Source: an uncultured bacterium
Lineage (GTDB): Bacteria > Patescibacteriota > Minisyncoccia > Moranbacterales > GWC2-37-73
DNA length: 64,000 nt
Assembly (NCBI GenBank): GCA_903837175.1
Contig: CAILTR010000055.1
Span: 819-64,818, forward strand
Direction: 5' to 3'
The notes beneath the pieces are model-generated. The model worked only from the letters and a program-made list of their open reading frames with translations. It was not told the origin of the DNA and ran no database searches. The position numbers and the translations under genes are program-made. Below, piece by piece: positions 4,638 through 58,341 of the stretch (position 1 is its first letter; every line of letters begins with the position of its first letter).

Positions 4638-4710
4638 AAATAGTAATTTCCTGTTTTTTTAAAAAAGCCAAAAGTGTGCTATAATATTAAGTAATATTAA
4701 TTTAACTAGT

Positions 4711-4747
4711 AGTTGCAAGACGTTGGAGGCTTAGCCTCCTTGCAACT
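4711..4747 (+). repeat. Hairpin containing the palindrome GGAGGCTTAGCCTCC. Possible terminator or small structured RNA; it lies downstream of extended -10 'tgtgctataat' (4675-4685).
   Basis: Outer stem 'gttgcaag' / 'cttgcaac' and inner 'ggaggc tta gcctcc'. The same palindrome is duplicated at 57053-57091. Confidence 0.4.
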
Positions 4748-4821
4748 GGCCGTGATTTAATAGCTTCGGTATAATGAGGACATTCCCTTGAATATCAGCT
4801 CTTATTTTTTAAGAAAACTTT

Positions 4822-10226: not shown

Positions 10227-10266
10227 TTTCTAAACAATTTCCAGTGATTAAATTATAAAATATATT

Positions 10267-10368
10267 TTTTGTCATCCTGAATTTAGTTCAGGATCTTGCA
10301 CGCAGGAAGTTATCTTATGCAAAGGAAGTAGATGCTGAATCCGCCAGCTGGCGGACAGCATGACAAAG
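10267..10368 (+). ncRNA. Possible structured 5' leader or cis-regulatory RNA upstream of the HlyD-ABC operon.
   Basis: Nested helices are present. The outer stem is 'ttttgtcat' / 'atgacaaag'. There is an 8-bp hairpin 'atcctgaa tttag ttcaggat', a 14-nt perfect palindrome 'ccgccagctggcgg', and a 'ttgca..tgcaa' stem. Confidence 0.25.
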
Positions 10369-10381
10369 GCTTGAAATAAAA

Positions 10382-13019: not shown

Positions 13020-13029
13020 ATTAAAAAGC

Positions 13030-13140
13030 AAAAATCAAAATGGAAAATGACATTGTAAAATGTAAAATTTTTCATGCATTTGATAATTTTTAATTTTAAT
13101 TTGTCATTTTGATTTTTGAGATTTACATTTTACATTTCAT
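13030..13140 (+). repeat. Composite inverted-repeat element of modules X (tgtcattttgattttt) and Y (tttacattttacattt). This 'empty' copy lacks an internal gene.
   Basis: The left arm 'aaaaatcaaaatggaaaatgaca ttgtaaaatgtaaaa' and right arm 'tgtcattttgatttttgagatttacattttacattt' are related to the ends flanking the four-helix-bundle pseudogene at 14415-14886 and to 52285-52320. Confidence 0.5.
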
Positions 13141-14414: not shown

Positions 14415-14458
14415 ATTAAAATTAAAAAATCAAAATGGAAAATGACAAAGCAAAATTT
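14415..14458 (+). repeat. Left inverted-repeat end (rc of module X) of the four-helix-bundle cassette.
   Basis: 'aaaaatcaaaatggaaaatgaca'. Its reverse complement occurs at 14851-14868. Confidence 0.5.
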
Positions 14459-14806
14459 AAAAATGAATTCAAAAAAAGATTATATAATTTTGTGTTACGT
14501 CTGATAAGATTTATTGATACTCTCCCAAAAAGTTCCGTAAATGACATTATGGGTAAGCAATTATTAAGAAGTGGGACAAGTATCTTAGCAAATTATGTAG
14601 AAGCTAATTCGGCAAGTTCGAAAAAAGATTTTATAAACTTTTTTACCCATTCCTTGAAATCATCAAATGAATCAAAAGTTTAGTTGACTTTACTGAGAGA
14701 CACGCATAAAGGAGAAAAGCAAGAAATAGTGTGGTTGCTAGCAGAGTTAATCGAAATTTCTAATATTATAGCCAGTAGTATCCTTACGCTAAAAGGTAAG
14801 AAATAA
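14435..14806 (+). pseudogene. Four-helix-bundle protein (23S rRNA intervening-sequence protein family) interrupted by an in-frame TAG at 14681-14683.
   Basis: '...LANYVEANSASSKKDFINFFTHSLKSSNESKV*LTLLRDTHKGEKQEIVWLLAELIEISNIIASSILTLKGKK' aligns end-to-end with the intact paralog at 29709-30059. The stop replaces the conserved Gln of 'ETQL' (CAG to TAG). Confidence 0.55.
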
Positions 14807-14846
14807 TTTCTTATCATCTAGTGAAGAGACCAAAATTTTTTATTTT

Positions 14847-14886
14847 AAATTGTCATTTTCCATTTTGAGATTTACATTTTTCATTT
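14847..14886 (+). repeat. Right inverted-repeat end (modules X-ga-Y) of the four-helix-bundle cassette. It directly abuts the start of the second permease gene.
   Basis: 'tgtcattttccattttgagatttacatttttcattt'. Confidence 0.5.
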
Positions 14887-21325: not shown

Positions 21326-21673
21326 TTATTTTTCAGTTAGTTTGCTTAACGCTTCTTTCCTGACAATCTCCGAAACATTTCGCTCAATCCGCTCTAAGAT
21401 GTTGATAACTTTAAAAAGAATTACAAAGACAACCACAAAGCCGATAAAAATAAAAGTATTAAGACTTTCGCCGAAGCCCAATTGTTGGGAGATTTTATGC
21501 GTTGCGTTTGGAAAGAGGGAAAAAGCCGCGATGCTAAGCCAGATTATATTGCTGGTGACGAGTTTAAAAAAAGTTTGGCTCTGCTCTCCTTTTAAAAACT
21601 TTAGCCAAGCGCTAAGCAGGAAACTAAGCGCCCCAAGCGCCATAATAATTCTAAAGATAAAGACTAGGGTCAT
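21326..21673 (-). CDS. DUF2304-like small membrane protein accompanying GT2.
   Basis: 115 aa with three TM helices and a C-terminal amphipathic 'ILERIERNVSEIVRKEALS'. Its position upstream of a GT2 is typical. Confidence 0.5.
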   Translation of the reverse strand: MTLVFIFRIIMALGALSFLLSAWLKFLKGEQSQTFFKLVTSNIIWLSIAAFSLFPNATHKISQQLGFGESLNTFIFIGFVVVFVILFKVINILERIERNVSEIVRKEALSKLTEK

Positions 21674-21677
21674 AGGG

Positions 21678-21760
21678 TTCTTGAAGTTATAACGTTTTTA
21701 ACGTTCATAACGTTATAAAGTTATAAAGTAATAAAGTTGTGAAGTAGTAAAATTCTAACG
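21678..21760 (+). repeat. Array of tandem 8-9-nt units (ACGTTATAA / AGTTATAAA / AGTAATAAA).
   Basis: Direct reading. An inverted counterpart sits at 23500-23567. Confidence 0.6.
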
Positions 21761-22399
21761 TTAAGAACTTTTTAGCACTTTCCAATAACCACCCTTGTCG
21801 GGGCCGATTCTTTTTAAGAGTCCAGCTTTCTTTAGGTTGGTTATATTTTTTTCAATAGCTCGACTGGAGATACCAATTTTATCAGCGATGTCCTCAGCGC
21901 TTAATTTACCATCTTTTTGCAATAAATGCAATATTTTCTCCGAACTTTTCTCCGAACTTTTCTCCGAACTTTTCTCCGAAACGTTTTCTCCAAAAATATT
22001 TACATCAATCCCGCCCGAGACTTCTTTTAGCTCAGGCCTTGGAAGCCCATAAGCCGTAATTTCATCAATAGCTCTTTTTACTCCGCTGCCATATTTTTCA
22101 ATTAGTCCAACCTCTTTGAAAATTTCAGCAATTTTTAAATTTCTAGGGGTAGACTTTTCCGAGCCAGCGTATAAATCCTCGATTGAGATATTAGTTGGTA
22201 ATTTTCCAATGTTCCAGATAACGAGTTTGTTTTGGTAAACCCTAAATTGCGAATGAACTCCACTTCGGTAGTCACGATGGATGATAGCATTTACGATAAA
22301 CTCTCTCACTGCAGAGAGGGGATATTGCCAGCGTTCATCGCGCTCGGGCTTACCAGTGATGATGTATTCCTTGGTTATGTGGGACATGACAAAATCCAT
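21761..22399 (-). CDS. HATPase_c_4 (RecG C-terminal-like) plus winged-HTH putative transcriptional regulator. It is a Schlafen/AlbA_2-type regulator lacking the N-terminal AlbA_2 domain.
   Basis: 'REFIVNAIIHRDY', 'RNLKIAEIFKEVGLIEKYGSGVKR' and C-terminal HTH 'LSAEDIADKIGISSRAIEKNITNLKKAGLLKRIG'. The linker (SEKS)n is encoded by a 12-nt tandem repeat. Confidence 0.6.
   Translation of the reverse strand: MDFVMSHITKEYIITGKPERDERWQYPLSAVREFIVNAIIHRDYRSGVHSQFRVYQNKLVIWNIGKLPTNISIEDLYAGSEKSTPRNLKIAEIFKEVGLIEKYGSGVKRAIDEITAYGLPRPELKEVSGGIDVNIFGENVSEKSSEKSSEKSSEKILHLLQKDGKLSAEDIADKIGISSRAIEKNITNLKKAGLLKRIGPDKGGYWKVLKSS
21935..21981 (-). repeat. In-frame 12-nt tandem repeat (ttttctccgaac x~4) encoding the (SEKS)n linker.
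   Basis: Direct reading. Confidence 0.8.
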
Positions 22400-22494
22400 T
22401 ACCAGGTCAACCTCGCTCAGTAAATATATTGTGACGGAGCTAAGCTCCGAATCGGAGCTTAGCTCCGGGATAGCAAACTACAACTAATTAAGTT

Positions 22495-22600
22495 AAGTTG
22501 GTATTATAACGTTAAGAACATTACAAGCGTTCTAACTTTACAAACATTTTAACGTTACAAGCTTTATAAACGTGCTAACGTTAGGAACTTTTAGAGCCTC
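22495..22600 (+). repeat. Array of degenerate 8-9-nt AACGTT-containing units.
   Basis: 'aacgttaag aacattaca agcgttcta ... aacgttaca ... aacgttagg'. Confidence 0.5.
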
Positions 22601-22604
22601 CAAC

Positions 22605-23288
22605 CTACCCTGAAATTATCATCTTAACTAAAGTTTTGAGGCCATTTTTAAGATTCATTTTGTGAACTTTACTCATGGAATATTTAGTATAGCGAACCTC
22701 AATCGGCGTCTCAACGAATTTGAGTTGGTTGCGATGAATTTCGCGGATAACTTCGCTGTCATATTCGTAGCGATCAGTTTTAGTCTCAATCAGGTTGATA
22801 GCTTTTTTAGAATAAGCGCGAAAGCCAGATTGGCTGTCAGTAACCCAAAGTCCATAAATAACTAAGGTACAAAAATTTCCAAAATAGTTAGCGGCAATTT
22901 TCCAAACTGGCATTCCTTTCGGATTTTGTAGTCTAGAACCAAGCACTACGTCATTTCCTTGCTCGATAAAGGCTAGCATTTTTGCAATGTCGCTGGGGTT
23001 GTGTTGGCCGTCTCCGTCAATGGTAACTACAATATCCGCGCCAAGGAGTTTAGCCGCTTCAATTCCAGTTTTAGCTGCCGCGCCCTTCCCCCGATTTAGG
23101 AAGTGCTTTAACGCAATAACTCCAGCTTCTTTCCCAGCTAGCGCATAGGTTTCATCTGCGCTCCCATCATCTATGACGATAATATCGCGATAGCCCGCCG
23201 TCTGAACTTCCTTAATAACAGAAATAATCACCGTCGCCTCATTATACGCTGGGATCAAAATATAAATTTTCTTTGAAATTGTTTCCAT
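22605..23288 (-). CDS. GT2 polyprenyl-phosphate glycosyltransferase (DPM1-like, soluble).
   Basis: 'ILIPAYNEATVI', 'IVIDDGSADET' and 'DGDGQHNP'. Confidence 0.8.
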   Translation of the reverse strand: METISKKIYILIPAYNEATVIISVIKEVQTAGYRDIIVIDDGSADETYALAGKEAGVIALKHFLNRGKGAAAKTGIEAAKLLGADIVVTIDGDGQHNPSDIAKMLAFIEQGNDVVLGSRLQNPKGMPVWKIAANYFGNFCTLVIYGLWVTDSQSGFRAYSKKAINLIETKTDRYEYDSEVIREIHRNQLKFVETPIEVRYTKYSMSKVHKMNLKNGLKTLVKMIISG

Positions 23289-23499
23289 TAGTTAACAATA
23301 GCTTAAATATTAGGAAAAGCAATACCGTGGACCATGGGGCACAGGGCCTTAAAATTTCGAATTTCCAATTCTGAATTTTGAATCAATTTTGAATTATTTA
23401 ATGTTTCAAACATTGGGTCATTAGAATTTTATTCAAAATTCGAAATTCAAAATTCAAAATTATTTCCGTATTCTAAAATCTACCCTTTACTCTTTATCA

Positions 23500-23567
23500 C
23501 TTTACAAACGTTATGAACGTTAAAAACGTTATAACTTTCAACTTTATTACTTTATTACTTTATTCAC
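23500..23567 (+). repeat. Array 'aaacgttatgaacgttaaaaacgttata' followed by (AACTTTATT)x3. It is the inverted counterpart of 21705-21734.
   Basis: Direct reading. 23533-23560 is the reverse complement of 'ataaagtaataaagtt' at 21715-21730. Confidence 0.55.
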
Positions 23568-23614
23568 CCCGTAAAACTCGATTCTCTCGTCACGGGGCAC
23601 GCTTTCAACTTTCT

Positions 23615-24598
23615 TTATTCCCTAAACCCATCTGGATTTTTTCTGTGCCAATTCCAGGCGGTTTCGACAATCTGCTCAATTTCTGGAAACTGCGGTTGCC
23701 AGCCGAGAATAGCTTGGGCTTTTTGGGAGCTAGCAAAGAGATTAGCTGGGTCGCCATCGCGACGGGGCTCTTCGATAACTTTAAAGTCAACGCCGGTAAT
23801 TTTCTTTGAGATATCAATAACTTGGCGCACCGAAGTTCCTTTTTCATTACCAAGATTAAATTTATTAGAGACATTGTTTTTTTCTAGATAAGTCAGTGCT
23901 AGGACGTGCGCCTCGGCTAAATCATTAACGTGGACGTAGTCGCGAACGCCAGTGCCGTCGGCGGTTGGGAAGTCGGTGCCAAAAACTTTAATGGCGTCAT
24001 GTTTACCTAGCGCCGTTAGCAGAATCAAAGTTATTAGATGAGTTTTATTTTTATGGTCAGCTCCAATTTCGCCTGTTGGGTCAGCGCCAGCAGCGTTAAA
24101 ATAGCGCAGGGCGACGGACTTAAGCCCGTAGGCGTGATCGTAAGCGTCAAGGACTTGCTCAAACATTAGTTTAGTCAGGCCGTAGACGTTGGTTGGATTT
24201 TTTGGCGCAGTTTCTTGGATGGGCATTTCCTCAGGTTCGCCATAGACCGCAGCCGAGGAAGAAAAAATAATTTTTTTTACACCGCGCTCGAGCATGGCTT
24301 CTAAGAGATTAAGCCCACACACAAAATTATTTTCAAAAAATCTTTTTGGGTCAGTCATTGACTCGCCAGCTTCAATACTGCCAGCGAAATGCACTACGCC
24401 GTCAAAAGAGTTTTGGGCAAAAACTTTCTTTAAATCTGCTTTACTGGCTAAATCGCCTTCGAAAAGCTCAAAATCTTTAATTGCATCGCGGTGTCCTGAA
24501 GAAAGATTGTCAAAAATAATAATCTCGTGGCCAGCTTCTTTTAATTTTCGAACCGTGTGGCTTCCGATATAACCTGCGCCACCAGTGACTAATAGTTT
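23615..24598 (-). CDS. galE: UDP-glucose 4-epimerase.
   Basis: 'MKLLVTGGAGYIGSH', 'YGLTK' and 'SSSAAVYG'. The start was chosen at MKLLVTGG. Confidence 0.9.
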   Translation of the reverse strand, partial: KLLVTGGAGYIGSHTVRKLKEAGHEIIIFDNLSSGHRDAIKDFELFEGDLASKADLKKVFAQNSFDGVVHFAGSIEAGESMTDPKRFFENNFVCGLNLLEAMLERGVKKIIFSSSAAVYGEPEEMPIQETAPKNPTNVYGLTKLMFEQVLDAYDHAYGLKSVALRYFNAAGADPTGEIGADHKNKTHLITLILLTALGKHDAIKVFGTDFPTADGTGVRDYVHVNDLAEAHVLALTYLEKNNVSNKFNLGNEKGTSVRQVIDISKKITGVDFKVIEEPRRDGDPANLFASSQKAQAILGWQPQFPEIEQIVETAWNWHRKNPDGFRE

Positions 24599-24602
24599 CA
24601 TA

Positions 24603-24640
24603 AAACATAGAACATAGAACATGGAACATATAGCATAAAC
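24603..24640 (+). repeat. Tandem heptamers (AAAACAT AGAACAT AGAACAT GGAACAT ATAGCAT) abutting the galE start codon.
   Basis: On the galE coding strand this reads ATGCTAT ATGTTCC ATGTTCT ATGTTCT ATGTTTT then ATG (the start). Confidence 0.6.
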
Positions 24641-25930: not shown

Positions 25931-26058
25931 AATGCTTGTATGATTACATGCTTACATGTTTATATGTTTATATGTTTATATGATTATATGATTGTATGTT
26001 TATATGCTTACATGCTTACATGTTTATATGATTATATGCTTACATGTTTATATGATTA
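25931..26058 (+). repeat. 16 tandem copies of the octamer ATGNTTRY (atgtttat / atgattat / atgcttac). It sits in the divergent promoter region.
   Basis: Direct reading. Every unit starts with ATG. Confidence 0.85.
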
Positions 26059-26126
26059 TGCCTTTACTGGGCCTGACTTTATGCTATACTTTAAATACGT
26101 TAACTAAAGCTAAATAATTTCAACTT

Positions 26127-27137: not shown

Positions 27138-28076
27138 ATGAATGAAAATCCTTTTATGTCAGTAGTTGTGCCTTTGTATGATGAGGAAGGTAATGTAAAG
27201 GAACTACATCGTCGCATTTTAGAGGCTTGTCAGGAAATTGGAAAGCCTTTCGAAATTATTTTCGTTGATGATGGTTCTAAGGATAAAACCGTTGAAAACT
27301 GCAAAGGTCTTTCGCCGCTTACGCTGATTAAATTTCGCAAGAATTTTGGCCAAACCGCTTCTTTCGACGCCGGGATTAAACAAGCCAAAGGTGAAATTAT
27401 TGTGATGATGGATGGGGATTTACAAAATGATCCTGCCGATATTAAGCTATTACTGGCTAAAATCGAAGAAGGTTTTGACGTGGTGGCTGGTTGGCGTTGG
27501 AAGCGAAAAGATAGCCTAAGTAAAAAAATCTTTTCCCGTACAGCTAATCTTTTGCGCAAGATTTTAATTCAAGACAAAATTCACGATAGTGGTTGTTCGC
27601 TAAAAGCCTATAAGCGAAGTTGTTTTGAAGACATGGATCTTTTTGGCGAAATGCATCGTTTTATCCCAGCACTTTTGGAGTTACAAGGTTATAGCGTTGG
27701 GGAAGTTAAGGTTAGCCACCATCCTCGAACTTCTGGGGTGACAAAATATAATTGGAAGCGCGCGATGAAGGGTTTTGTGGATATGCTTTCAATTTGGTTT
27801 TGGCGAAAATATTCGAACCGACCACTCCACCTTTTCGGGGGAACTGGCATTATTTTCTCAATTATCGGTTTTGGAATTTTGGCTTGGATGGCAATTGAAA
27901 AGATCTTTTTTGGAGCTAAGCTTATGAATACTAACTGGCCACTGATTGGAATTTTCTTCGTTTTAGTCGGCATCCAGCTTTTTATCTTTGGCCTGCTAGC
28001 TGATATCTTGCTTAAGGTTTACTATAGAAATCAAAAGCGGATGAATTATAATATTAAAGAGGTGGTTAAGGTCTAG
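27138..28076 (+). CDS. Second GtrB/ArnC-like GT2 with C-terminal TM helices.
   Basis: 'VVVPLYDEEGNV', 'FVDDGSKDKT', 'DGDLQNDP' and two C-terminal TM helices. Confidence 0.8.
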   Translation: MNENPFMSVVVPLYDEEGNVKELHRRILEACQEIGKPFEIIFVDDGSKDKTVENCKGLSPLTLIKFRKNFGQTASFDAGIKQAKGEIIVMMDGDLQNDPADIKLLLAKIEEGFDVVAGWRWKRKDSLSKKIFSRTANLLRKILIQDKIHDSGCSLKAYKRSCFEDMDLFGEMHRFIPALLELQGYSVGEVKVSHHPRTSGVTKYNWKRAMKGFVDMLSIWFWRKYSNRPLHLFGGTGIIFSIIGFGILAWMAIEKIFFGAKLMNTNWPLIGIFFVLVGIQLFIFGLLADILLKVYYRNQKRMNYNIKEVVKV

Positions 28077-28078
28077 AA

Positions 28079-28113
28079 CATAGAACATATAACATATAAC
28101 ATGTAACAGGGGA
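28079..28113 (+). repeat. Tandem heptamers AGAACAT AGAACAT ATAACAT ATAACAT GTAACAG.
   Basis: Same family as 24603-24640. Confidence 0.6.
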
Positions 28114-29581: not shown

Positions 29582-29587
29582 AATAGT

Positions 29588-29660
29588 TCATAAGGTTATA
29601 AAGTTCATAAAGTTCATAAGGCTTTGAACTCATAAGGTTTTTAGATTTATAAAGCTGTGA
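29588..29660 (+). repeat. Array of 8-9-nt units (GTTCATAAG / GTTATAAAG / GTTCATAAA ...).
   Basis: Direct reading. An inverted array sits at 30084-30125. Confidence 0.6.
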
Positions 29661-29708
29661 GGCTATAGAGTCTTCAGAATTGTAAATTTTGAACAGGAAA
29701 ATAAAAAA

Positions 29709-30059
29709 ATGGCAAAATTTGAGAGCTTTGAAGATATGCTTGTTTGGCAAAAATCAAGAATTCTTGTTTTGGACAGCTATAAAGCATTTAATAATAGTAG
29801 AGACTTTTCTTTCAGGGATCAAATTTGTAGGGCTGCGGTTTCAGTCATGAACAATATAGCTGAAGGATATGAGAGAAAGGGAAATAAGGAATTTGTGAAA
29901 TTTTTGTATATAGCAAAGGGTTCTTGCGCCGAAGTTAGATCGATGCTTTATTTGGCGGTCGATTTGAAGTATATAGATAAGACTGAATTCGAAAAGACAT
30001 ATAATCAGACTCTTGAAATTTCAAAAATGTTATCGAGCTTAATAAAAAAGATTTGTTAG
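29709..30059 (+). CDS. Four-helix-bundle protein (23S rRNA IVS protein family), intact.
   Basis: 'FEDMLVWQKSRILVLDSY...AAVSVMNNIAEGYERKGNKEFVKFLYIAKGSCAEVRSMLYLAVDL' matches the canonical family pattern. Confidence 0.8.
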   Translation: MAKFESFEDMLVWQKSRILVLDSYKAFNNSRDFSFRDQICRAAVSVMNNIAEGYERKGNKEFVKFLYIAKGSCAEVRSMLYLAVDLKYIDKTEFEKTYNQTLEISKMLSSLIKKIC

Positions 30060-30083
30060 AGATACTCAGAATTTGTATTCAAT

Positions 30084-30125
30084 AAGACTTTAAAAACTTT
30101 ACAAACTTTAAGAACTTTATAACTA
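30084..30125 (+). repeat. Array (AACTTTAAA AACTTTACA AACTTTAAG AACTTTATA). It is the inverted counterpart of the array at 29588-29660.
   Basis: Direct reading. Confidence 0.6.
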
Positions 30126-31300: not shown

Positions 31301-31359
31301 GCTAAAAGAATTCCTAATTCCTAATGTCTAATACCAAATTGATTTAACACAAGCTATGT

Positions 31360-31426
31360 CATTCCCGTGAAAACAGCCTGCCTACCTGCCCGAAGTGCTA
31401 CATTGTTGCAGGCGGGCGCGGGAATG
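31360..31426 (+). repeat. GC-rich (~60% GC) imperfect palindromic element in the AT-rich intergenic DNA.
   Basis: 'gtcattcccg' ... 'cgggaatggc' encloses 'cctgc...gcagg'. The direct repeat 'tgcaatgtgcgg' / 'tgcaaaatgcgg' follows. Confidence 0.4.
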
Positions 31427-31476
31427 GCAAGGTGTGCAATGTGCGGAGGGGGATGCAAAATGCGGAATACAAAAAT

Positions 31477-32600: not shown

Positions 32601-32822
32601 ATGAGAAATGAAATTTATTCAAATGGTCATAGGTTTTTAACGCAACAGTTAAAGAAGGCACGAGAAAATTCTGGCTTTAGTCAGAAAGATGTTGCTGAGC
32701 TTTTAACTAAAACTCAATCTTATGTTTCCAAGATTGAGGCGGGGCAACGTCGTATCGATGTAATTCAATTACAAGAATTTGCAAAAATTTATAGAAAGAA
32801 GATTAATTTTTTTATTAAGTAA
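32601..32822 (+). CDS. XRE-family HTH protein. It is a controller (C)-like regulator of the R-M cassette.
   Basis: 'GFSQKDVAELLTKTQSYVSKIEAGQRRIDVIQLQEFAKIY'. It is 73 aa and sits immediately upstream of the small nuclease candidate. Confidence 0.65.
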   Translation: MRNEIYSNGHRFLTQQLKKARENSGFSQKDVAELLTKTQSYVSKIEAGQRRIDVIQLQEFAKIYRKKINFFIK

Positions 32823-32826
32823 ATTT

Positions 32827-33273
32827 ATGTGGGCAAAAAATCTAACTAAGATTAATGATGGAATTTTTAGGACTATTAATGGTAATTCCGATGAAATGAT
32901 AGGCGTCGGAAGGTGCATGAAGGCAGGTTTTCCATGTTCTCGGGCAGATGTAACTAACGGGAGATATGATGCCATTATTGATGTGGGTAATAACAAGTTA
33001 CTAAGAGTTCAAATAAAAGGAACATCTGGTGGAAGCGTTAGTTTTACGGGTGGAGGAAGAAGTGGAAAGCAAATCAGTAGAACAGTTAAACAACGGACAT
33101 ATCGATATTCTCCGGATGATTGTGATTTAATTCTGGTCGTAGATGGAAGAAGTGGGGAATGTTATATTATTCCAATTGAAGATATTCAACAAATGAGTAA
33201 TTCAAAGTCACTCGATAAACTGAGTAAATATAAAGAAAATTGGGATATTCTGAAAACGATGGCAGGAATCTAA
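32827..33273 (+). CDS. Candidate small restriction endonuclease (PD-(D/E)xK-like). Alternatively, a toxin partner of the XRE protein.
   Basis: 148 aa, translationally coupled to the XRE gene. The possible motif is 'YDAIIDV...LLRVQIKG' (D...QxK). It converges on, and overlaps by 4 nt, the methyltransferase gene. Confidence 0.35.
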   Translation: MWAKNLTKINDGIFRTINGNSDEMIGVGRCMKAGFPCSRADVTNGRYDAIIDVGNNKLLRVQIKGTSGGSVSFTGGGRSGKQISRTVKQRTYRYSPDDCDLILVVDGRSGECYIIPIEDIQQMSNSKSLDKLSKYKENWDILKTMAGI

Positions 33274-34835
33274 TTTAGAGCTTTTTTTATTTCTCTTGCA
33301 ACTGCCTCTAGAACAGTTACGGTTACGGAGTTTCCAGCTTGCTTGTAAAGCGCGGAGTCAGCTAAATTTGGAAGCTCAAAATCTCTCGGGAAACCTTGTA
33401 GCCTGAAACATTCAATCGGCGTTAGTTTTCTGATCCCATGCCTATCTTTTATAATTGGAACATTATGTCCTCCCATCCCCATGTTGGCAGTGAGCGTTGG
33501 GCAGACACCTTTTTTATTTTCTCTAACATATTGTCTTCGCCATTGGTAAACCTTACCTTCTTGCGTAACAAAATCTTTAAGTTTTTCGAAAAGAGGCTTA
33601 CCATTATAATAATATTTTTCAGGCACTTTTTGCTCAAGTAGATCAGTAACTTTTATTGATAATTTTTGTGGTTCGGGAAACTTAAATTTGTCTGTGTAAT
33701 TTTTATTTTTAAATCCTATGATATATATCCTTTCGCGATTTTGAGGAATATTTCCATACTCCATACTATTTAAAACCTTAGTTTTTACATGATAACCCAA
33801 GTCTTCCAGGGTTTTGATAATTATTTTAAAAGTTTTTCCTCCGTCATGTCCTTTTAGGTTTTTTACATTTTCCAGTAGAAACCCTGCCGGATTGCGAGCT
33901 TCTAGAATTCTAGCAACATCGAAAAATAAATTACCGCGGTCTTTTTCATCATTAAACCCCTTGCGGTATCCAGCTATAGAGAAAGCTTGGCAGGGAAATC
34001 CTCCCAAGAGAAAGTCGAATTCCGGAAGATCTTCAATGCCAATTTTGCGGATATCCTCTACGACAAGTTTTGATTTTTTGAAATTTAAATCGTAAGTAGT
34101 CTTACAATTTTTTTCAAAGTCATTCGCAAAGACAGTTTCAAAGCCAGCTTTTTCAAAACCAAGTCTAATACCCCCGACGCCAGCAAATAAGTCCAGGGTT
34201 CGGAAAAGTTTTTGATCTGTTTTGCTGCTGTTTTCAAGATTTCTTTTTATCTCAACAACTACGCCTCTAATTTCAACCTCCTTTCTATAAATGGGAAGCA
34301 TTGTTTGGTTAGCTGGTTGCAATCTAAATCGATTTTTTTCTCGATAAATCTTTTTTAGAGTAGCTTCATTATCATCAATTATCGCAACGACAGTTTGTCC
34401 ATTTTCGGCGACGGATTGTTTTTTAATAACGACAATGTCACCATCAAAGATTCCTTCATCAATCATGCTATTTCCCTGAACTTGTAGTGCATAATAATTG
34501 CCAGCTTTATTTACGGCGCTTGTCGCAATCATCACAGTTTCTCCTCTAGTTTCGATAGCTTCAATGGGTTGCCCAGCGGCGATGGTTCCGATTAACGGTA
34601 TCTTAATGAGATTGTAGGGGTTCCTTTTTTTAAGTTCGATACCTCTAGCAGAACTGCCATTTTTTTCTATAAATCCTTTTTTTTCTAAAGTTTCAATATG
34701 TTGATGCACGGTTGAAATAGCAGAAAGTTTGAAATGTTTTCTGATTTCTTCAATAGTTGGAGAAAAAGTTTTTTTATTAATAAACAAGGTTATAAAATCT
34801 AGGATTTGTTTTTGTTTTTTTGTTAGGGTTGGCAT
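33270..34835 (-). CDS. LexA repressor (wHTH plus S24 peptidase) fused in-frame to a C5 cytosine-specific DNA methyltransferase.
   Basis: The N-terminal ~205 aa align along LexA: 'LTKKQKQILDFI', 'SSARGIEL', the 'IAAGQP' Ala-Gly cleavage site, the nucleophile Ser in 'VQGNSM', the general-base Lys in 'VVIKKQ', and 'VVAIIDD'. The C-terminal ~315 aa carry Dcm motifs I 'DLFAGVGG', IV 'GGFPCQAFSIAG' and 'ENVKNL'. There is no stop or start between the two parts. Confidence 0.8.
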   Translation of the reverse strand: MPTLTKKQKQILDFITLFINKKTFSPTIEEIRKHFKLSAISTVHQHIETLEKKGFIEKNGSSARGIELKKRNPYNLIKIPLIGTIAAGQPIEAIETRGETVMIATSAVNKAGNYYALQVQGNSMIDEGIFDGDIVVIKKQSVAENGQTVVAIIDDNEATLKKIYREKNRFRLQPANQTMLPIYRKEVEIRGVVVEIKRNLENSSKTDQKLFRTLDLFAGVGGIRLGFEKAGFETVFANDFEKNCKTTYDLNFKKSKLVVEDIRKIGIEDLPEFDFLLGGFPCQAFSIAGYRKGFNDEKDRGNLFFDVARILEARNPAGFLLENVKNLKGHDGGKTFKIIIKTLEDLGYHVKTKVLNSMEYGNIPQNRERIYIIGFKNKNYTDKFKFPEPQKLSIKVTDLLEQKVPEKYYYNGKPLFEKLKDFVTQEGKVYQWRRQYVRENKKGVCPTLTANMGMGGHNVPIIKDRHGIRKLTPIECFRLQGFPRDFELPNLADSALYKQAGNSVTVTVLEAVAREIKKALN

Positions 34836-52278: not shown

Positions 52279-52284
52279 AAAAAA

Positions 52285-52320
52285 TGAAAAATGCAAATCT
52301 CAAAATGGAAAATTTCGGAA
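52285..52320 (-). repeat. Third copy of the X-gaga-Y element, in reverse-complement orientation.
   Basis: Its reverse complement 'gaaattttccattttgagatttgcatttttcattttt' matches 14851-14886. Confidence 0.5.
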
Positions 52321-52415
52321 TCGCTATATAATATTTTAAAAATATGAGCGAAGCGAATATTAAAATTTTGATTTTTGATTTTTAAATTTTGATTTATTAT
52401 TATCTCCCTATTCCC

Positions 52416-56859: not shown

Positions 56860-57042
56860 ATGAAAAAAGTTATCGAGTCTGGAATTTATTTGTTGATTTT
56901 TTTACTGCCCTGGCAAACGAGGTGGATTATTGAGGCTGGGAAAATAAAGGGGGGAGCGAGCGAATATTTAACATATAGTCTTTACGGGGTTGATCTTTTA
57001 TTAATAGGGTTATTTTTTTTTAGCCTTGTTGTATTTTCATAA
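56860..57042 (+). CDS. Small two-TM ORF. It is probably the detached N-terminal segment of the downstream O-antigen-ligase-like gene.
   Basis: 'IYLLIFLLPWQTRWII' resembles the N-terminus of ligase-family proteins. It is separated from 57113 by a duplicated palindrome. Confidence 0.3.
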   Translation: MKKVIESGIYLLIFLLPWQTRWIIEAGKIKGGASEYLTYSLYGVDLLLIGLFFFSLVVFS

Positions 57043-57052
57043 AAGTTTTTTC

Positions 57053-57091
57053 TTGGAGGCTAAGCCTCCAACTGGAGGCTTAGCCTCCAAG
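57053..57091 (+). repeat. Tandem pair of palindromes (ttggaggct a agcctccaa / ctggaggct t agcctccaag).
   Basis: Direct reading. The same GGAGGCTTAGCCTCC core occurs at 4724-4739. Confidence 0.7.
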
Positions 57092-57112
57092 AAAACTTCC
57101 ATATATCCATTT

Positions 57113-58204: not shown

Positions 58205-58341
58205 AGATAGAGATAGGTTTGTGTTGTTTCCAGAGATTATTGCAAGAGGCCCACAAATCTACAAATTAGCTGCCTGCCTCGTCGGCAGACGGGCAAATTT
58301 ACAAAGAGAAAGAAAGTTGGTGTAATTTTTTCTGTGTATAT

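What the first reader, a model, noticed from the sequence alone, without database searches (positions are those of the whole stretch)
21678..23567. A 1.9-kb two-gene unit (truncated Schlafen-like HTH regulator plus GT2) bounded by inverted ATAAAGTT arrays and AACGTT-rich arrays
The array at 21705-21734, 'ataaagttataaagtaataaagtt', is mirrored at 23533-23560 by 'aactttattactttattactttatt'. Additional arrays rich in the palindrome AACGTT sit at 21678-21700, 22495-22600 and 23500-23530.

The enclosed regulator carries HATPase_c_4 and a wHTH. It lacks the usual N-terminal AlbA_2 domain. Its linker is a 12-nt tandem repeat, (SEKS)n, that could vary by slippage.

The AACGTT arrays are plausible binding-site clusters for this HTH protein.
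Basis: seen in the sequence. Interest (0 to 1): 0.5.

Follow-up and report, generated by a model that had tools for sequence, protein, structure and literature searches.

The report
Decayed Schlafen-ATPase gene splitting a glycosyltransferase pair
In this Moranbacteria (candidate phyla radiation) genome, a defence-type Schlafen-ATPase-HTH gene that once inserted between two partner cell-wall sugar genes has lost its front half, and the repeat arrays around it are real but are one case of a repeat habit seen at many gene junctions here, not the ends of a mobile unit.

Summary
The sequence features are real. There is a perfect 31-nt inverted repeat (21684-21714 / 23507-23537). ATAAAGTT arrays are mirrored, and 10 AACGTT sites fall in 618 nt of spacer against 0.25 expected. 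A 12-nt coding repeat is present, as is an HATPase_c_4+wHTH ORF without AlbA_2.

The "two-gene unit" is not a unit. In about 38 other Patescibacteria species the GT2 (GacI/PpgS-like) is followed directly by DUF2304 (GacJ-like). Only this lineage, and independently one other (L093), carries the Schlafen-ATPase-wHTH gene between them. Close relatives (84-88% nt identity) have the full 453-aa gene there. The window has lost about 710 nt, the start plus codons 1-229. That stretch is replaced by extra array units and a remnant of a palindromic MITE-like element.

The GT2 is vertically inherited and never inverted. The inverted repeat is ancestral (about 55 nt, imperfect). Its perfect 31-nt core is a window-specific extra copy that the relatives lack.

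Similar 7-9-nt arrays, with other words, sit at many other gene junctions, and they flank 23S-IVP genes as inverted pairs. Binding of the arrays by the wHTH is untested and not favoured. The linker repeat does vary: 4 units here, 5 in the relatives. Interest is modest.

The parts
23615..24601 (-). galE-like UDP-glucose 4-epimerase (328 aa). It is the upstream neighbour and gives context.
   Evidence: Pfam Epimerase 1.9e-63. It is 95% identical in amino acids to L007. The true start is the Met of MKLLVTGGAGYIG.
23567..23597 (-). GC-rich stem-loop (CCCCGUGA...UUACGGGG) just after the galE stop. It has no U-tract.
   Evidence: Seen in the MFE and centroid folds. Conserved in L007 and L197.
23541..23564 (.). 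Array Y, (ACTTTATT)x3. It is the mirror of array Q at 21715-21738.
   Evidence: TRF period 8, 3.0 copies, 100% matches. Inverted repeats I8 and I12.
23507..23537 (.). Block X, three AACGTT sites at 9-nt spacing. It is the right arm of the perfect 31-nt inverted repeat and is ancestral at this site.
   Evidence: I5. L007 has the orthologous block with one AACGTT changed to AATGTT.
23353..23461 (-). AT-rich long hairpin built from AATTTTGAAT-type words. It looks like an 'empty' version of the inverted-array stems that flank the 23S_rRNA_IVP genes elsewhere in the window.
   Evidence: Arms of 54 nt at 76% complementarity (I2). The spacer fold has z=-3.96. All four stem substitutions relative to L007 are wobble-compatible on the coding-strand RNA. 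Analogous stems are at 13022-13132, 14418-14880 and 52281-52390.
23295..23322 (-). Inferred GT2 promoter: TTGCTT, 16 nt, TATTGT, then 6 nt to the ATG. This implies a leaderless or near-leaderless mRNA.
   Evidence: This is an inference from sequence. The motif is conserved upstream of the orthologous GT2 in L012 and L013 and in L007. It falls below the threshold of the consensus scan.
22605..23288 (-). GT2 glycosyltransferase (227 aa), of the GacI/PpgS type, a polyprenyl-phosphate sugar synthase.
   Evidence: Pfam Glycos_transf_2 8.6e-22. The best NCBIfam hit is PpgS at 1.8e-39 and 135 bits, below the 370-bit equivalog cutoff. It is followed directly by DUF2304 in about 38 species.
22547..22604 (-). 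The conserved part of the GT2-to-SLFN spacer. It has the GGTTGGAGGCT stem half followed by an AACGTT-rich array, and it includes the 21-nt direct repeat at 22572-22592.
   Evidence: 93% identical to L007. In L007 the array is enclosed by GGTTGGAGG...CTTCCAACC. The direct repeat AAAAGTTCnTAACGTTAGnAn recurs at 21752-21772.
22496..22546 (.). Window-specific extra array units (AACATT, AAGCGTT, AACTTT, AACGTT words) that L007, L008 and L009 lack.
22423..22495 (.). Filler at the deletion junction. It is the left arm plus double palindrome (22435-22467) of a MITE-like hairpin element family.
   Evidence: The perfect 16-nt arms form a 15-bp stem (I21). Family members are at window 4690-4775 and 57040-57095, L007 2215-2320 and 4205-4290, and L091 1640-1760. 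They show presence/absence differences between the window and L007.
21761..22399 (-). 3' remnant (212 codons; homology extends up to about 22423-22434) of a Schlafen-ATPase ('Schlatpase')-wHTH gene. It keeps the GHKL ATPase region, the linker and the wHTH, and it lacks the SLFN/AlbA_2 nuclease domain.
   Evidence: Pfam. tblastn with the L009 453-aa orthologue matches residues 230-453 at 93%, and residues 1-229 match nothing anywhere in the window. In-frame homology continues upstream of the ATG. dN/dS against L007 is 0.06.
21934..21991 (-). 12-nt coding tandem repeat, (SEKS)n, forming the linker between the ATPase and the wHTH.
   Evidence: TRF 4.7 copies. It is one unit shorter than in L007 and L197. 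Other unit sequences occur in homologues.
21739..21772 (.). The old, diverged arm (rcX'') of the ancestral inverted repeat. It overlaps the 21-nt direct repeat (21752-21772) and the remnant's stop codon.
   Evidence: Alignment A2.
21715..21738 (.). Array Q, (ATAAAGTT)x3. On the coding strand it reads AACTTTAT and forms part of the DUF2304 leader.
   Evidence: AACTTTATAAC-type words precede the DUF2304 start codon in L011 and L013 as well.
21684..21714 (.). The new, perfect inverted copy of block X, inserted in the DUF2304 leader. It is the left arm of the 31-nt inverted repeat.
   Evidence: Absent from L007, L008, L009, L010, L195, L196 and L197 at this position. It is bounded by ATAACTT microhomology.
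21326..21673 (-). DUF2304 small membrane protein (115 aa), GacJ/Rv3632-like, the partner of the GT2.
   Evidence: Pfam DUF2304 3.8e-12. Literature on the GacI-GacJ complex and on PpgS/Rv3632.

Best explanation
The region is a stretch of a cell-envelope glycosylation operon of a Candidatus Moraniibacteriota bacterium. The gene order is galE, a GacI/PpgS-like GT2, DUF2304 (GacJ-like), a second GT2, and EamA.

What is shown:
- A selfish or defence-type gene encoding a Schlafen (AlbA_2) nuclease domain, a GHKL ATPase (PF13749) and a C-terminal wHTH (a 'Schlatpase-HTH' protein) was inserted between the normally adjacent GT2 and DUF2304 partner genes. This happened in the common ancestor of this organism and its close relatives.
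- The insert is flanked by a 21-nt direct repeat.
- In the window's lineage a hairpin (MITE-like) element is present upstream of the gene, and about 710 nt have been lost: the start codon plus codons 1-229, which is the whole Schlafen domain.
- What remains is an intact 212-codon ORF with the GHKL region, a slippage-prone tetrapeptide linker and the wHTH.

What is inferred about the remnant: it is an effector-less relic. Either the deletion is recent or the relic is still under selection as a short ATP- and DNA-binding protein.

What is shown about the arrays:
- They are local members of a junction-wide class of AT-rich arrays with 7-9-nt periods, found at gene junctions across the window.
- They change in copy number, and even in word, between lineages about 13% apart.
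- They often occur as inverted pairs that form stems.
- The S1/S3 inverted repeat is ancestral to the clade and imperfect. The eye-catching perfect 31-nt arm is a recent, window-specific inverted copy of the galE-GT2 spacer block, placed in the DUF2304 leader.

What is inferred about the arrays:
- The 31-nt copy arose by template switching at ATAACTT microhomology.
- The arrays grow and shrink by slippage.
- They act, if at all, at the level of spacer RNA or DNA structure, and not as operators of this wHTH or as the ends of a mobile or invertible unit.
For: Synteny:
- L007, L008, L009 and L197 (84-88% nt identity to the window) carry galE-GT2-[453-aa AlbA_2+HATPase_c_4+HTH]-DUF2304 in the same order and on the same strand.
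- About 38 other Patescibacteria loci have the GT2 followed by DUF2304 within 10-100 nt and no SLFN gene.
- GacI/GacJ and PpgS/Rv3632 are known physical and functional partners that are usually adjacent or fused.

Truncation:
- tblastn matches only residues 230-453 of the orthologue.
- L007 6865-7574 is replaced by window 22423-22546.
- The filler matches a dispersed double-palindrome element family.

Family identity:
- Pfam.
- PADLOC pAgo and SIR2-associated models hit the SLFN-GHKL part.
- The Schlatpase literature.

The GT2 is vertical: it is 81-82% identical to SLFN-less L011 and L012, the same as its neighbours.

The arrays are a general habit:
- 22 of 37 short-period arrays lie in the 11% of the window that is intergenic (P=1.6e-12).
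- Orthologous junctions carry different words in the window and in L007.
- L007 has a 110-nt (ATAAAGTT)n array after the galE stop that the window lacks. The window has a 28-31-nt block that the relatives lack.
- Both IVP genes are flanked by inverted arrays, one pair from the same ATAAAGTT/AACTTTA family.

The inverted repeat is ancestral: L007 has arms of 27 nt at 96% complementarity (I2).

No recombinase or transposase is called between window positions 12.6 and 33.3 kb.
Against: - Outside the indels, spacer S1 is 93% identical between the window and L007. Four-fold degenerate sites are 70% identical, and local third-codon positions about 80%. The spacer elements therefore look constrained (or recently exchanged) and are not neutral junk.
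- One difference between the lineages is shared by both arms of the repeat: C/G in L007 and T/A in the window. Each lineage also keeps a near-perfect core. This could mean selection for complementarity.
- AACGTT clusters occur only in the SLFN-bearing lineage among all loci examined. A link with the insert cannot be excluded.
- The remnant shows no sign of decay. dN/dS is 0.06, dN is 0 in the wHTH, and there is no excess of changes on the window branch.
- Arrays show no indels between strains 1.5% apart, so 'hypervariable' applies only at the 13% scale.
- Only two independent lineages of the clade were available.
Confidence: 0.65

Rival explanations
1. RNA-level bracket. The inverted arrays in S1 and S3 pair in a read-through transcript. 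They form a long-range stalk, like the processing stalks that flank rRNAs or the stems of 23S intervening sequences. The stalk encloses the hairpin-GT2-SLFN segment and is cleaved, for example by RNase III, or it stabilises the flanking cistrons. The same logic would apply to the inverted arrays around the IVP genes.
For: - Both IVP genes in the window lie between inverted arrays (34 nt at 82% and 45 nt at 80%), and 'empty' stems of the same kind exist.
- In the S1 hairpin, all four stem substitutions are wobble-compatible on the coding-strand RNA.
- S1 is conserved well above synonymous sites.
- One change is concerted across both arms, and a near-perfect core is kept in each lineage.
- The GC stem after galE lacks a U-tract, so read-through is plausible.
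Against: - The arms are 1.8-2.4 kb apart.
- The GT2 appears to have its own promoter downstream of the S1 arm, so the S1 arm would be transcribed only by read-through.
- There is a single covarying site and only two lineages, so gene conversion explains the same pattern.
- No transcript data are available.
- Rfam finds nothing.
Confidence: 0.15
2. One reading: the AACGTT arrays are clustered operator or iteron sites bound by the wHTH of the Schlafen-ATPase protein, for autoregulation or for control of the glycosylation genes.
For: - AACGTT is palindromic, and 10 sites are concentrated in the three spacers that flank the gene and the GT2.
- Clusters of at least 3 sites occur only in the window and in L007, L008 and L009, among about 190 loci.
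- The spacers are conserved.
- The wHTH is perfectly conserved at the protein level between the lineages (dN=0).
Against: - The arrays grade into AACTTT, AACATT and AAAGTT words, which also occur at junctions unrelated to the gene. Examples are window 29585-29660 and 30087-30125, and L007 1088-1200, which includes AACGTT.
- The largest AACGTT block next to DUF2304 exists only in the genome where the protein is truncated.
- The 9-nt spacing is off the helical repeat.
- L091, L092 and L093 (75-82% identical proteins) have 0-1 AACGTT nearby, although their wHTH domains differ.
- Characterised relatives of the family are ATP-switched nucleases, not transcription factors.
Confidence: 0.12
3. DNA inversion switch. 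The 31-nt perfect inverted repeat mediates RecA- or recombinase-dependent inversion of the promoter-GT2-remnant segment. This would uncouple the GT2 from DUF2304 and the downstream genes, giving phase-variable glycan modification.
For: - The perfect 31-nt arms are near the minimum length for homologous recombination.
- The GT2 promoter would lie inside the segment (inference).
- The concerted change in both arms is compatible with gene conversion between the arms.
Against: - All assemblies show a single orientation: the window contig seen in 3 samples, and L007, L008, L009 and L197 from several samples.
- No recombinase gene is called within about 10 kb.
- Relatives have only imperfect arms.
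- The unitig breaks are those expected from a 31-mer repeat alone.
Confidence: 0.04
4. Mobile two-gene element. GT2 plus the regulator form a transposon- or MITE-bounded cassette with the inverted arrays as terminal repeats.
For: - Inverted repeats lie at both ends.
- Close SLFN homologues sit next to GacI-like GT2 genes in L092 and L093 as well.
Against: - The GT2 occupies the same place and orientation in about 40 species. It is as similar to SLFN-less relatives as its neighbours are.
- There is no target-site duplication outside the arms.
- The 31-mer occurs only twice in the window.
- There is no transposase.
- The left perfect arm is missing in the relatives.
Confidence: 0.02

Closest known systems
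Schlatpase-HTH proteins: prokaryotic Schlafen AlbA_2 (PF04326) plus GHKL ATPase (PF13749) with a C-terminal HTH. The characterised relative is SLFN-pAgo (bioRxiv 10.64898/2026.05.29.728809).
   Same: The orthologues in L007, L009 and L197 have exactly this architecture. The window ORF matches PF13749 and a wHTH. PADLOC pAgo and SIR2 models hit the SLFN-GHKL region. The location among accessory and defence-like genes, and the patchy distribution, fit this family.
   Different: The window copy lacks the Schlafen nuclease domain entirely. No Argonaute or other sensor is fused. The function of the small HTH-type members has not been tested. Here the gene sits inside a glycan operon and not in a classical defence island.
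GacI/GacJ (Streptococcus pyogenes) and PpgS/Rv3632 (M. tuberculosis): a GT2 polyprenyl-phosphate sugar synthase with its DUF2304 activator (bioRxiv 10.1101/180810).
   Same: A GT2 of about 227 aa whose best NCBIfam hit is PpgS. A DUF2304 protein of 115 aa. The two are directly adjacent in about 38 related species.
   Different: In this lineage the pair is split by a 0.9-1.5-kb insert. The PpgS score is far below the equivalog cutoff, so the sugar specificity is unknown.
23S rRNA intervening sequences carrying PF05635 ORFs (stem-loop elements excised by RNase III)
   Same: The IVP ORFs in the window sit in the loop of long AT-rich inverted-array stems. 'Empty' stems of the same kind occur, including 23353-23461 inside the finding.
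   Different: Here they lie between protein-coding genes, not inside rRNA. Excision has not been shown. The S1/S3 arms are 1.8 kb apart and enclose a core gene.
Intergenic tandem repeats of Borg elements (PMC9879509) and bacterial REP/MITE-type intergenic repeats
   Same: Short tandem arrays are concentrated at gene boundaries, evolve by unit gain and loss, and appear to arise locally.
   Different: The arrays here are imperfect, AT-rich, have periods of only 7-9 nt and often come in inverted pairs. Point substitutions within them are rarer than at synonymous sites. They are not a single dispersed consensus like REP.
Invertons and shufflons (phase-variable invertible segments)
   Same: Inverted repeats flank a segment that contains a promoter and a surface-glycan gene.
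   Different: There is no recombinase, only one orientation is observed, and the arms are imperfect in the relatives.

Membership tests
Schlatpase-HTH (SLFN AlbA_2 + GHKL ATPase + HTH) | Schlafen/AlbA_2 domain (PF04326) at the N-terminus | tested here: not met
   No Pfam hit in the 212-aa ORF. tblastn with residues 1-229 of the orthologue finds nothing in the window. The feature is met in the orthologues L009 and L197.
Schlatpase-HTH (SLFN AlbA_2 + GHKL ATPase + HTH) | GHKL-type ATPase region (PF13749 HATPase_c_4) | tested here: met
   E=5.4e-18, residues 48-133. Aligns to PDB 3lmm residues 295-399.
Schlatpase-HTH (SLFN AlbA_2 + GHKL ATPase + HTH) | C-terminal (winged) HTH | tested here: met
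   HTH_11 at 2.2e-9 and HTH_24 at 2.7e-9, residues 153-198.
Schlatpase-HTH (SLFN AlbA_2 + GHKL ATPase + HTH) | ATP-dependent oligomerisation and tRNA/RNA nuclease activity | not testable with these tools
   Known only for SLFN-pAgo. It needs biochemistry.
GacI/GacJ - PpgS/Rv3632 pair | GT2 polyprenyl-phosphate glycosyl synthase | tested here: inconclusive
   PF00535 at 8.6e-22. The NCBIfam PpgS score is 135 bits against a cutoff of 370.
GacI/GacJ - PpgS/Rv3632 pair | DUF2304 small membrane protein encoded immediately downstream | tested here: met
   DUF2304 at 3.8e-12. The two are adjacent in about 38 species. In the window the remnant gene lies between them.
Invertible segment (inverton) | Inverted repeats flanking the segment | tested here: met
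   31 nt at 100% complementarity.
Invertible segment (inverton) | Site-specific recombinase encoded nearby | tested here: not met
   The gene calls and Pfam assignments for window 12.6-33.3 kb contain none.
Invertible segment (inverton) | Both orientations present in populations or assemblies | tested here: not met
   The window contig (3 samples) and L007, L008, L009 and L197 all show the same orientation. Raw reads were not available.
Transposon / MITE-bounded mobile unit | Terminal inverted repeats plus target-site duplication, multiple genomic copies, and presence/absence as a unit | tested here: not met
   There is no duplication outside the arms. Only two copies of the 31-mer exist. The GT2 is present in all relatives, and only the SLFN gene is polymorphic.
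Operator/iteron array of a wHTH regulator | Repeated sites specifically associated with the regulator gene or its targets and conserved with it | tested here: inconclusive
   The sites are clustered around the gene in this clade only. However, the largest block is absent where the gene is intact. Related arrays occur elsewhere, and none lie near the homologues L091-L093.
Operator/iteron array of a wHTH regulator | Direct protein-DNA binding | not testable with these tools
   Needs EMSA or DAP-seq.

The most novel reading that the evidence does not exclude
The inverted AT-rich arrays, the 21-nt direct repeat around the insert and the duplicated host 5' gene ends seen around homologous inserts in L003, L005 and L091 could be signatures of an undescribed way in which Patescibacteria acquire and insulate small selfish or defence genes (Schlatpase-HTH, PemK, 23S-IVP four-helix-bundle genes). 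These genes would be placed at gene boundaries of cell-envelope glycan clusters. Cassettes would enter at array or hairpin sites with target duplication, and the paired arrays would then act as conserved RNA stems that process the insert out of the operon transcript.
Probability: 0.12. Interest if true: 0.6.

Novelty: new member of a known kind. Interest (0 to 1): 0.3.

Why it matters
The result turns an apparently exotic 'repeat-bounded regulator unit' into a datable sequence of ordinary events. A Schlafen-ATPase-HTH gene inserted into a GacI/GacJ-type pair, a hairpin element arrived, and a deletion removed the nuclease domain.

It gives a natural example of an effector-less GHKL-wHTH relic of a newly described defence-type family. 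It also shows that the junction between GacI-like and GacJ-like genes is a recurrent landing site: SLFN appears there in two lineages and an IVP gene in a third.

The most useful open lead is the class of 7-9-nt intergenic arrays and inverted-array stems in this candidate-phyla-radiation genome. They are more conserved than synonymous sites, yet they change by whole units and have no known function.

Tried and rejected
- Rfam (gathering threshold) on the whole window gave no match.
- The sigma-70 and terminator consensus scan found nothing in the arrays. The only strong terminator lies upstream of galE.
- An exact look-up of the 212-aa ORF found it not on record. The record gene-called a 208-aa version.
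- Scanning IMG/VR for TAACGTT at 9-nt period gave 24 hits. These are mostly coding NVT-type repeats or unrelated phage arrays and tell nothing about this locus.
- PADLOC gave only domain-level hits (pAgo- and SIR2-associated Schlafen modules, CARF/HTH) and identified no system.
- P0131 (a DUF2304 variant) had no retrievable DNA.
- I considered whether the short 'MDF...'-starting homologues (P0001, P0002, P0012, P0046 and others) show that a stand-alone GHKL-wHTH family exists. This stays unresolved. Many come from short contigs, and the conserved internal Met would be called as the start in any 5'-truncated copy.
- I considered a recent recombination tract to explain the 98% identity of the wHTH segment. 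Identity is mosaic along the whole locus (76-98% per 100 nt), so this is not special.
- I tried reading the arrays as -35/-10 phasing. The unit lengths do not give 16-18-nt spacers.


Full report
**Source and organism.** The window is identical to part of an 84.7-kb metagenome contig, ENA ERZ27313295 k141_216488. GC content is 38%. The best matches of its GT2 among species genomes are MAGs of Candidatus Moraniibacteriota, in the Patescibacteria or candidate phyla radiation. No Shine-Dalgarno-like sequence precedes the start codons I inspected.

**Observation check.**
- All genes between 20.1 and 25.8 kb are on the minus strand: EamA, GT2b (266 aa), DUF2304 (115 aa, 21326-21673), the HATPase_c_4+wHTH ORF (212 aa, 21761-22399), GT2a (227 aa, 22605-23288) and galE (23615-24601).
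- The three spacers are S3 (21674-21760), S2 (22400-22604) and S1 (23289-23614).
- There is a perfect 31-nt inverted repeat at 21684-21714 / 23507-23537 (I5).
- (ATAAAGTT)x3 at 21715-21738 mirrors (ACTTTATT)x3 at 23541-23564.
- AACGTT is not over-represented in the window as a whole: 26 sites against 19.5 expected. It is extremely clustered, with 10 sites in the 618 nt of the three spacers against 0.25 expected (P=2e-13).
- The 12-nt coding repeat is real (4.7 copies).
- Independent Logan unitigs reproduce the sequence.

**The gene pair and the insert.**
- The best NCBIfam hit of GT2a is PpgS, below the cutoff. The 115-aa protein is a DUF2304.
- GacI/GacJ and PpgS/Rv3632 are GT2-DUF2304 pairs that form a complex. 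They are normally adjacent and are sometimes fused (10.1101/180810).
- In about 38 other Patescibacteria species loci, the GT2a orthologue (59-82% identity) is followed by DUF2304 within 10-100 nt.
- Only the window and its close relatives L007, L008, L009 and L197 have a gene between them. These relatives come from JGI metagenomes and are 84-88% identical to the window in nucleotides. In them the gene is a 453-aa AlbA_2+HATPase_c_4+HTH protein.
- GT2a is as similar to the SLFN-less relatives L011 and L012 (82% and 81%) as galE and EamA are. GT2a was therefore inherited vertically, and only the Schlafen-type gene is the insert.
- A 21-nt direct repeat (AAAAGTTCnTAACGTTAGnAn) brackets the insert in the window and in L007. 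In the window it lies at 22572-22592 and 21752-21772.
- The junction is a recurrent landing site. L093 is a distant lineage (GT2 67%, DUF2304 30%, SLFN 75% identical). It also has GT2-SLFN-DUF2304, compactly and without arrays. L015 has a 23S-IVP-like ORF there, between inverted AT-rich arrays.

**The truncation.**
- tblastn with the L009 protein matches window 22423-21764 over residues 230-453 at 93% identity. Nothing matches residues 1-229.
- In-frame homology continues upstream of the annotated ATG, as far as the palindrome at 22435-22467.
- L007 6865-7574 (22 nt of leader plus codons 1-229) is replaced in the window by 22423-22546.
- That replacement consists of extra array units (22496-22546) plus a filler. 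The filler's double palindrome and left arm resemble a dispersed hairpin element. Copies of the element are present or absent at other sites between the window and L007, and one lies beside the SLFN gene of L091.
- The simplest history is insertion of the element in the GT2-SLFN spacer, followed by a deletion running from the element into the gene. This is an inference.

**What kind of gene it is.**
- AlbA_2 plus PF13749 is the 'Schlatpase' supradomain. More than 90% of the small members end in an HTH.
- PADLOC pAgo and SIR2-associated models hit this region.
- The window copy keeps the GHKL region, the linker and the wHTH, and it lacks the presumed effector domain.
- It shows no decay. dN/dS against L007 is 0.06, the same as its neighbours at 0.04-0.11. 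dN is 0 in the wHTH. There is no excess of amino-acid changes on the window branch.
- The deletion is therefore either recent, or the relic is still useful. I cannot decide between these.

**The linker repeat.**
- The window has one 12-nt unit fewer than L007 and L197.
- Homologues carry other tetrapeptide repeats at the same place: EKTV x4, PENV x5, DTAK x4.
- The slippage idea is supported, and the repeat is a family trait.

**The arrays are a general habit of the window.**
- 22 of 37 arrays with periods of 6-12 nt lie in the 11% of the window that is intergenic (P=1.6e-12). Twelve of them lie in the glycan cluster at 21.6-31.4 kb. Most abut a stop codon or a start codon.
- The words differ from junction to junction. 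Examples are AATGCCT, TTAGCTT, CATAGAA, TATGTTTA x15 and ATTCGTA.
- The AACGTT, AACTTT and AAAGTT family recurs at 29585-29660 and 30087-30125, around an IVP gene. It also recurs in L007 at 1088-1200, an unrelated junction, where it includes AACGTT.
- Orthologous junctions can carry different words. Upstream of galE the words are AACTTTA-type in L007 and CTATGTT-type in the window.
- Copy numbers also differ. The divergent spacer has 15 units in the window against about 8 in L007. L007 has a 110-nt (ATAAAGTT)n array after the galE stop that the window lacks.
- At 1.5% divergence (L197 against L007) the arrays show no indels.

**The inverted repeat.**
- Aligning the four arms shows an ancestral repeat. 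It reads [X][Y] on the + strand in S1 and [X''][Y''] on the coding strand in S3.
- In L007 its best core is 27 nt at 96% complementarity (I2).
- The window's perfect 31-nt arm at 21684-21714 is an additional, outer copy of X. It is absent from L007, L008, L009, L010, L195, L196 and L197, and it is bounded by ATAACTT microhomology. That is why the composite is not a simple mirror.
- One lineage difference is shared by both arms (GTCG/CGAC in L007, GTTG/CAAC in the window). This fits either gene conversion or selection for pairing.

**Signs of constraint.**
- Outside the indels, S1 is 93% identical between the lineages. Four-fold degenerate sites are 70% identical, and nearby third-codon positions about 80%.
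- The four substitutions in the main stem of the 23353-23461 hairpin are all wobble-compatible on the coding-strand RNA.
- The spacer folds are well below those of shuffled sequences, with z of -4 to -5.
- These points keep an RNA-structure role alive (rival 1). They are the main evidence against treating the arrays as neutral slippage products.

**The operator idea.**
- In favour: the clustering, the palindromic word, and the restriction of clusters to the SLFN-bearing clade.
- Against: related arrays occur elsewhere. The biggest block exists only where the protein is truncated. The spacing is 9 nt. The homologues L091, L092 and L093 have no arrays nearby, although their wHTH domains differ. 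The family is not known to regulate transcription.
- I rate this idea at about 0.12.

**Inversion or mobility.**
- No recombinase or transposase is called between 12.6 and 33.3 kb.
- All assemblies show one orientation.
- GT2a is a core gene.
- Both readings are unlikely.

**Verdict.** The locus is a decayed member of a known gene family, sitting inside a known gene pair, surrounded by locus-specific examples of an intergenic repeat habit whose function is unknown. Novelty is rated as a new member of a known kind, with interest about 0.3.

Noticed in passing
L003 1896-3114; L005 222-2771; L091 1-116 and 1858-1984: Homologous Schlafen-ATPase-HTH genes, and PemK toxin genes, are inserted in other Patescibacteria glycan or ABC clusters. 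Each inserted gene is preceded by a duplicated copy of the host gene's 5' end: 61 nt x3 in L003 and 50-120 nt x3 in L005. In L091 the duplicated sequence is a 39-59-nt array-containing segment. P0092 in L003 is a chimera of a GT2 N-terminus, a piece of AlbA_2, and GHKL-HTH. The pattern looks like serial cassette insertion with long target duplications.
   Followed up: partly
window 14418-14880, 29584-30125; empty stems at 13022-13132, 23353-23461, 52281-52390; L015 1205-1713: 23S_rRNA_IVP (PF05635) ORFs lie between protein-coding genes, in the loop of long AT-rich inverted-array stems. Gene-less stems of the same word families also occur. They resemble rRNA intervening sequences relocated to mRNA spacers.
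   Followed up: partly
window 4690-4775, 22423-22495, 57040-57095; L007 2215-2320, 4205-4290; L091 1640-1760: A small hairpin (MITE-like) element family with a GGAGGCTWAGCCTCC palindrome, single or double, and AT-rich outer arms. Copies are present or absent at orthologous sites between the window and L007.
   Followed up: partly
window 33270-34835 (-), 32779-33273 (+): A single 521-aa ORF fuses a LexA DNA-binding domain, a Peptidase_S24 domain and a C-5 cytosine DNA methylase. It sits next to a PD-(D/E)XK endonuclease ORF and a small HTH gene. This is an unusual LexA-methyltransferase fusion, possibly an SOS-linked restriction-modification module.
   Followed up: no
window 24602-24640 and 28077-28108; 25932-26059: The same AACATAGAACATA-type array occurs on the + strand upstream of galE and downstream of the GT2 at 27138-28076, bracketing a 3.5-kb four-gene block. 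A 15-unit TATGTTTA array fills the divergent promoter region, where L007 has about 8 units.
   Followed up: partly
L197/L195/L196 versus L007/L008, downstream of DUF2304: Strains that are 98.5% identical through galE-GT2-SLFN-DUF2304 switch abruptly after DUF2304. One set carries a methyltransferase plus a 355-aa GT2, and the other carries the 265-aa GT2b. This is a glycan-cluster recombination breakpoint.
   Followed up: no
window 10260-10375, 31355-31431, 58255-58300; L013 6690-6730; L015 395-450: GC-rich palindromic inserts of the type TGTCATTCCCGCGnnnGCGGGAATCC or GTCATCCTGA...TCAGGAT lie in otherwise AT-rich spacers. They may be another small repeat family.
   Followed up: no
window, upstream of most start codons: There is no Shine-Dalgarno-like motif upstream of the starts. 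The conserved TTGCTT-16 nt-TAT(T/A)GT motif ends 6-7 nt before the GT2 ATG in the window, L007 and L012, which suggests leaderless or near-leaderless transcripts.
   Followed up: no
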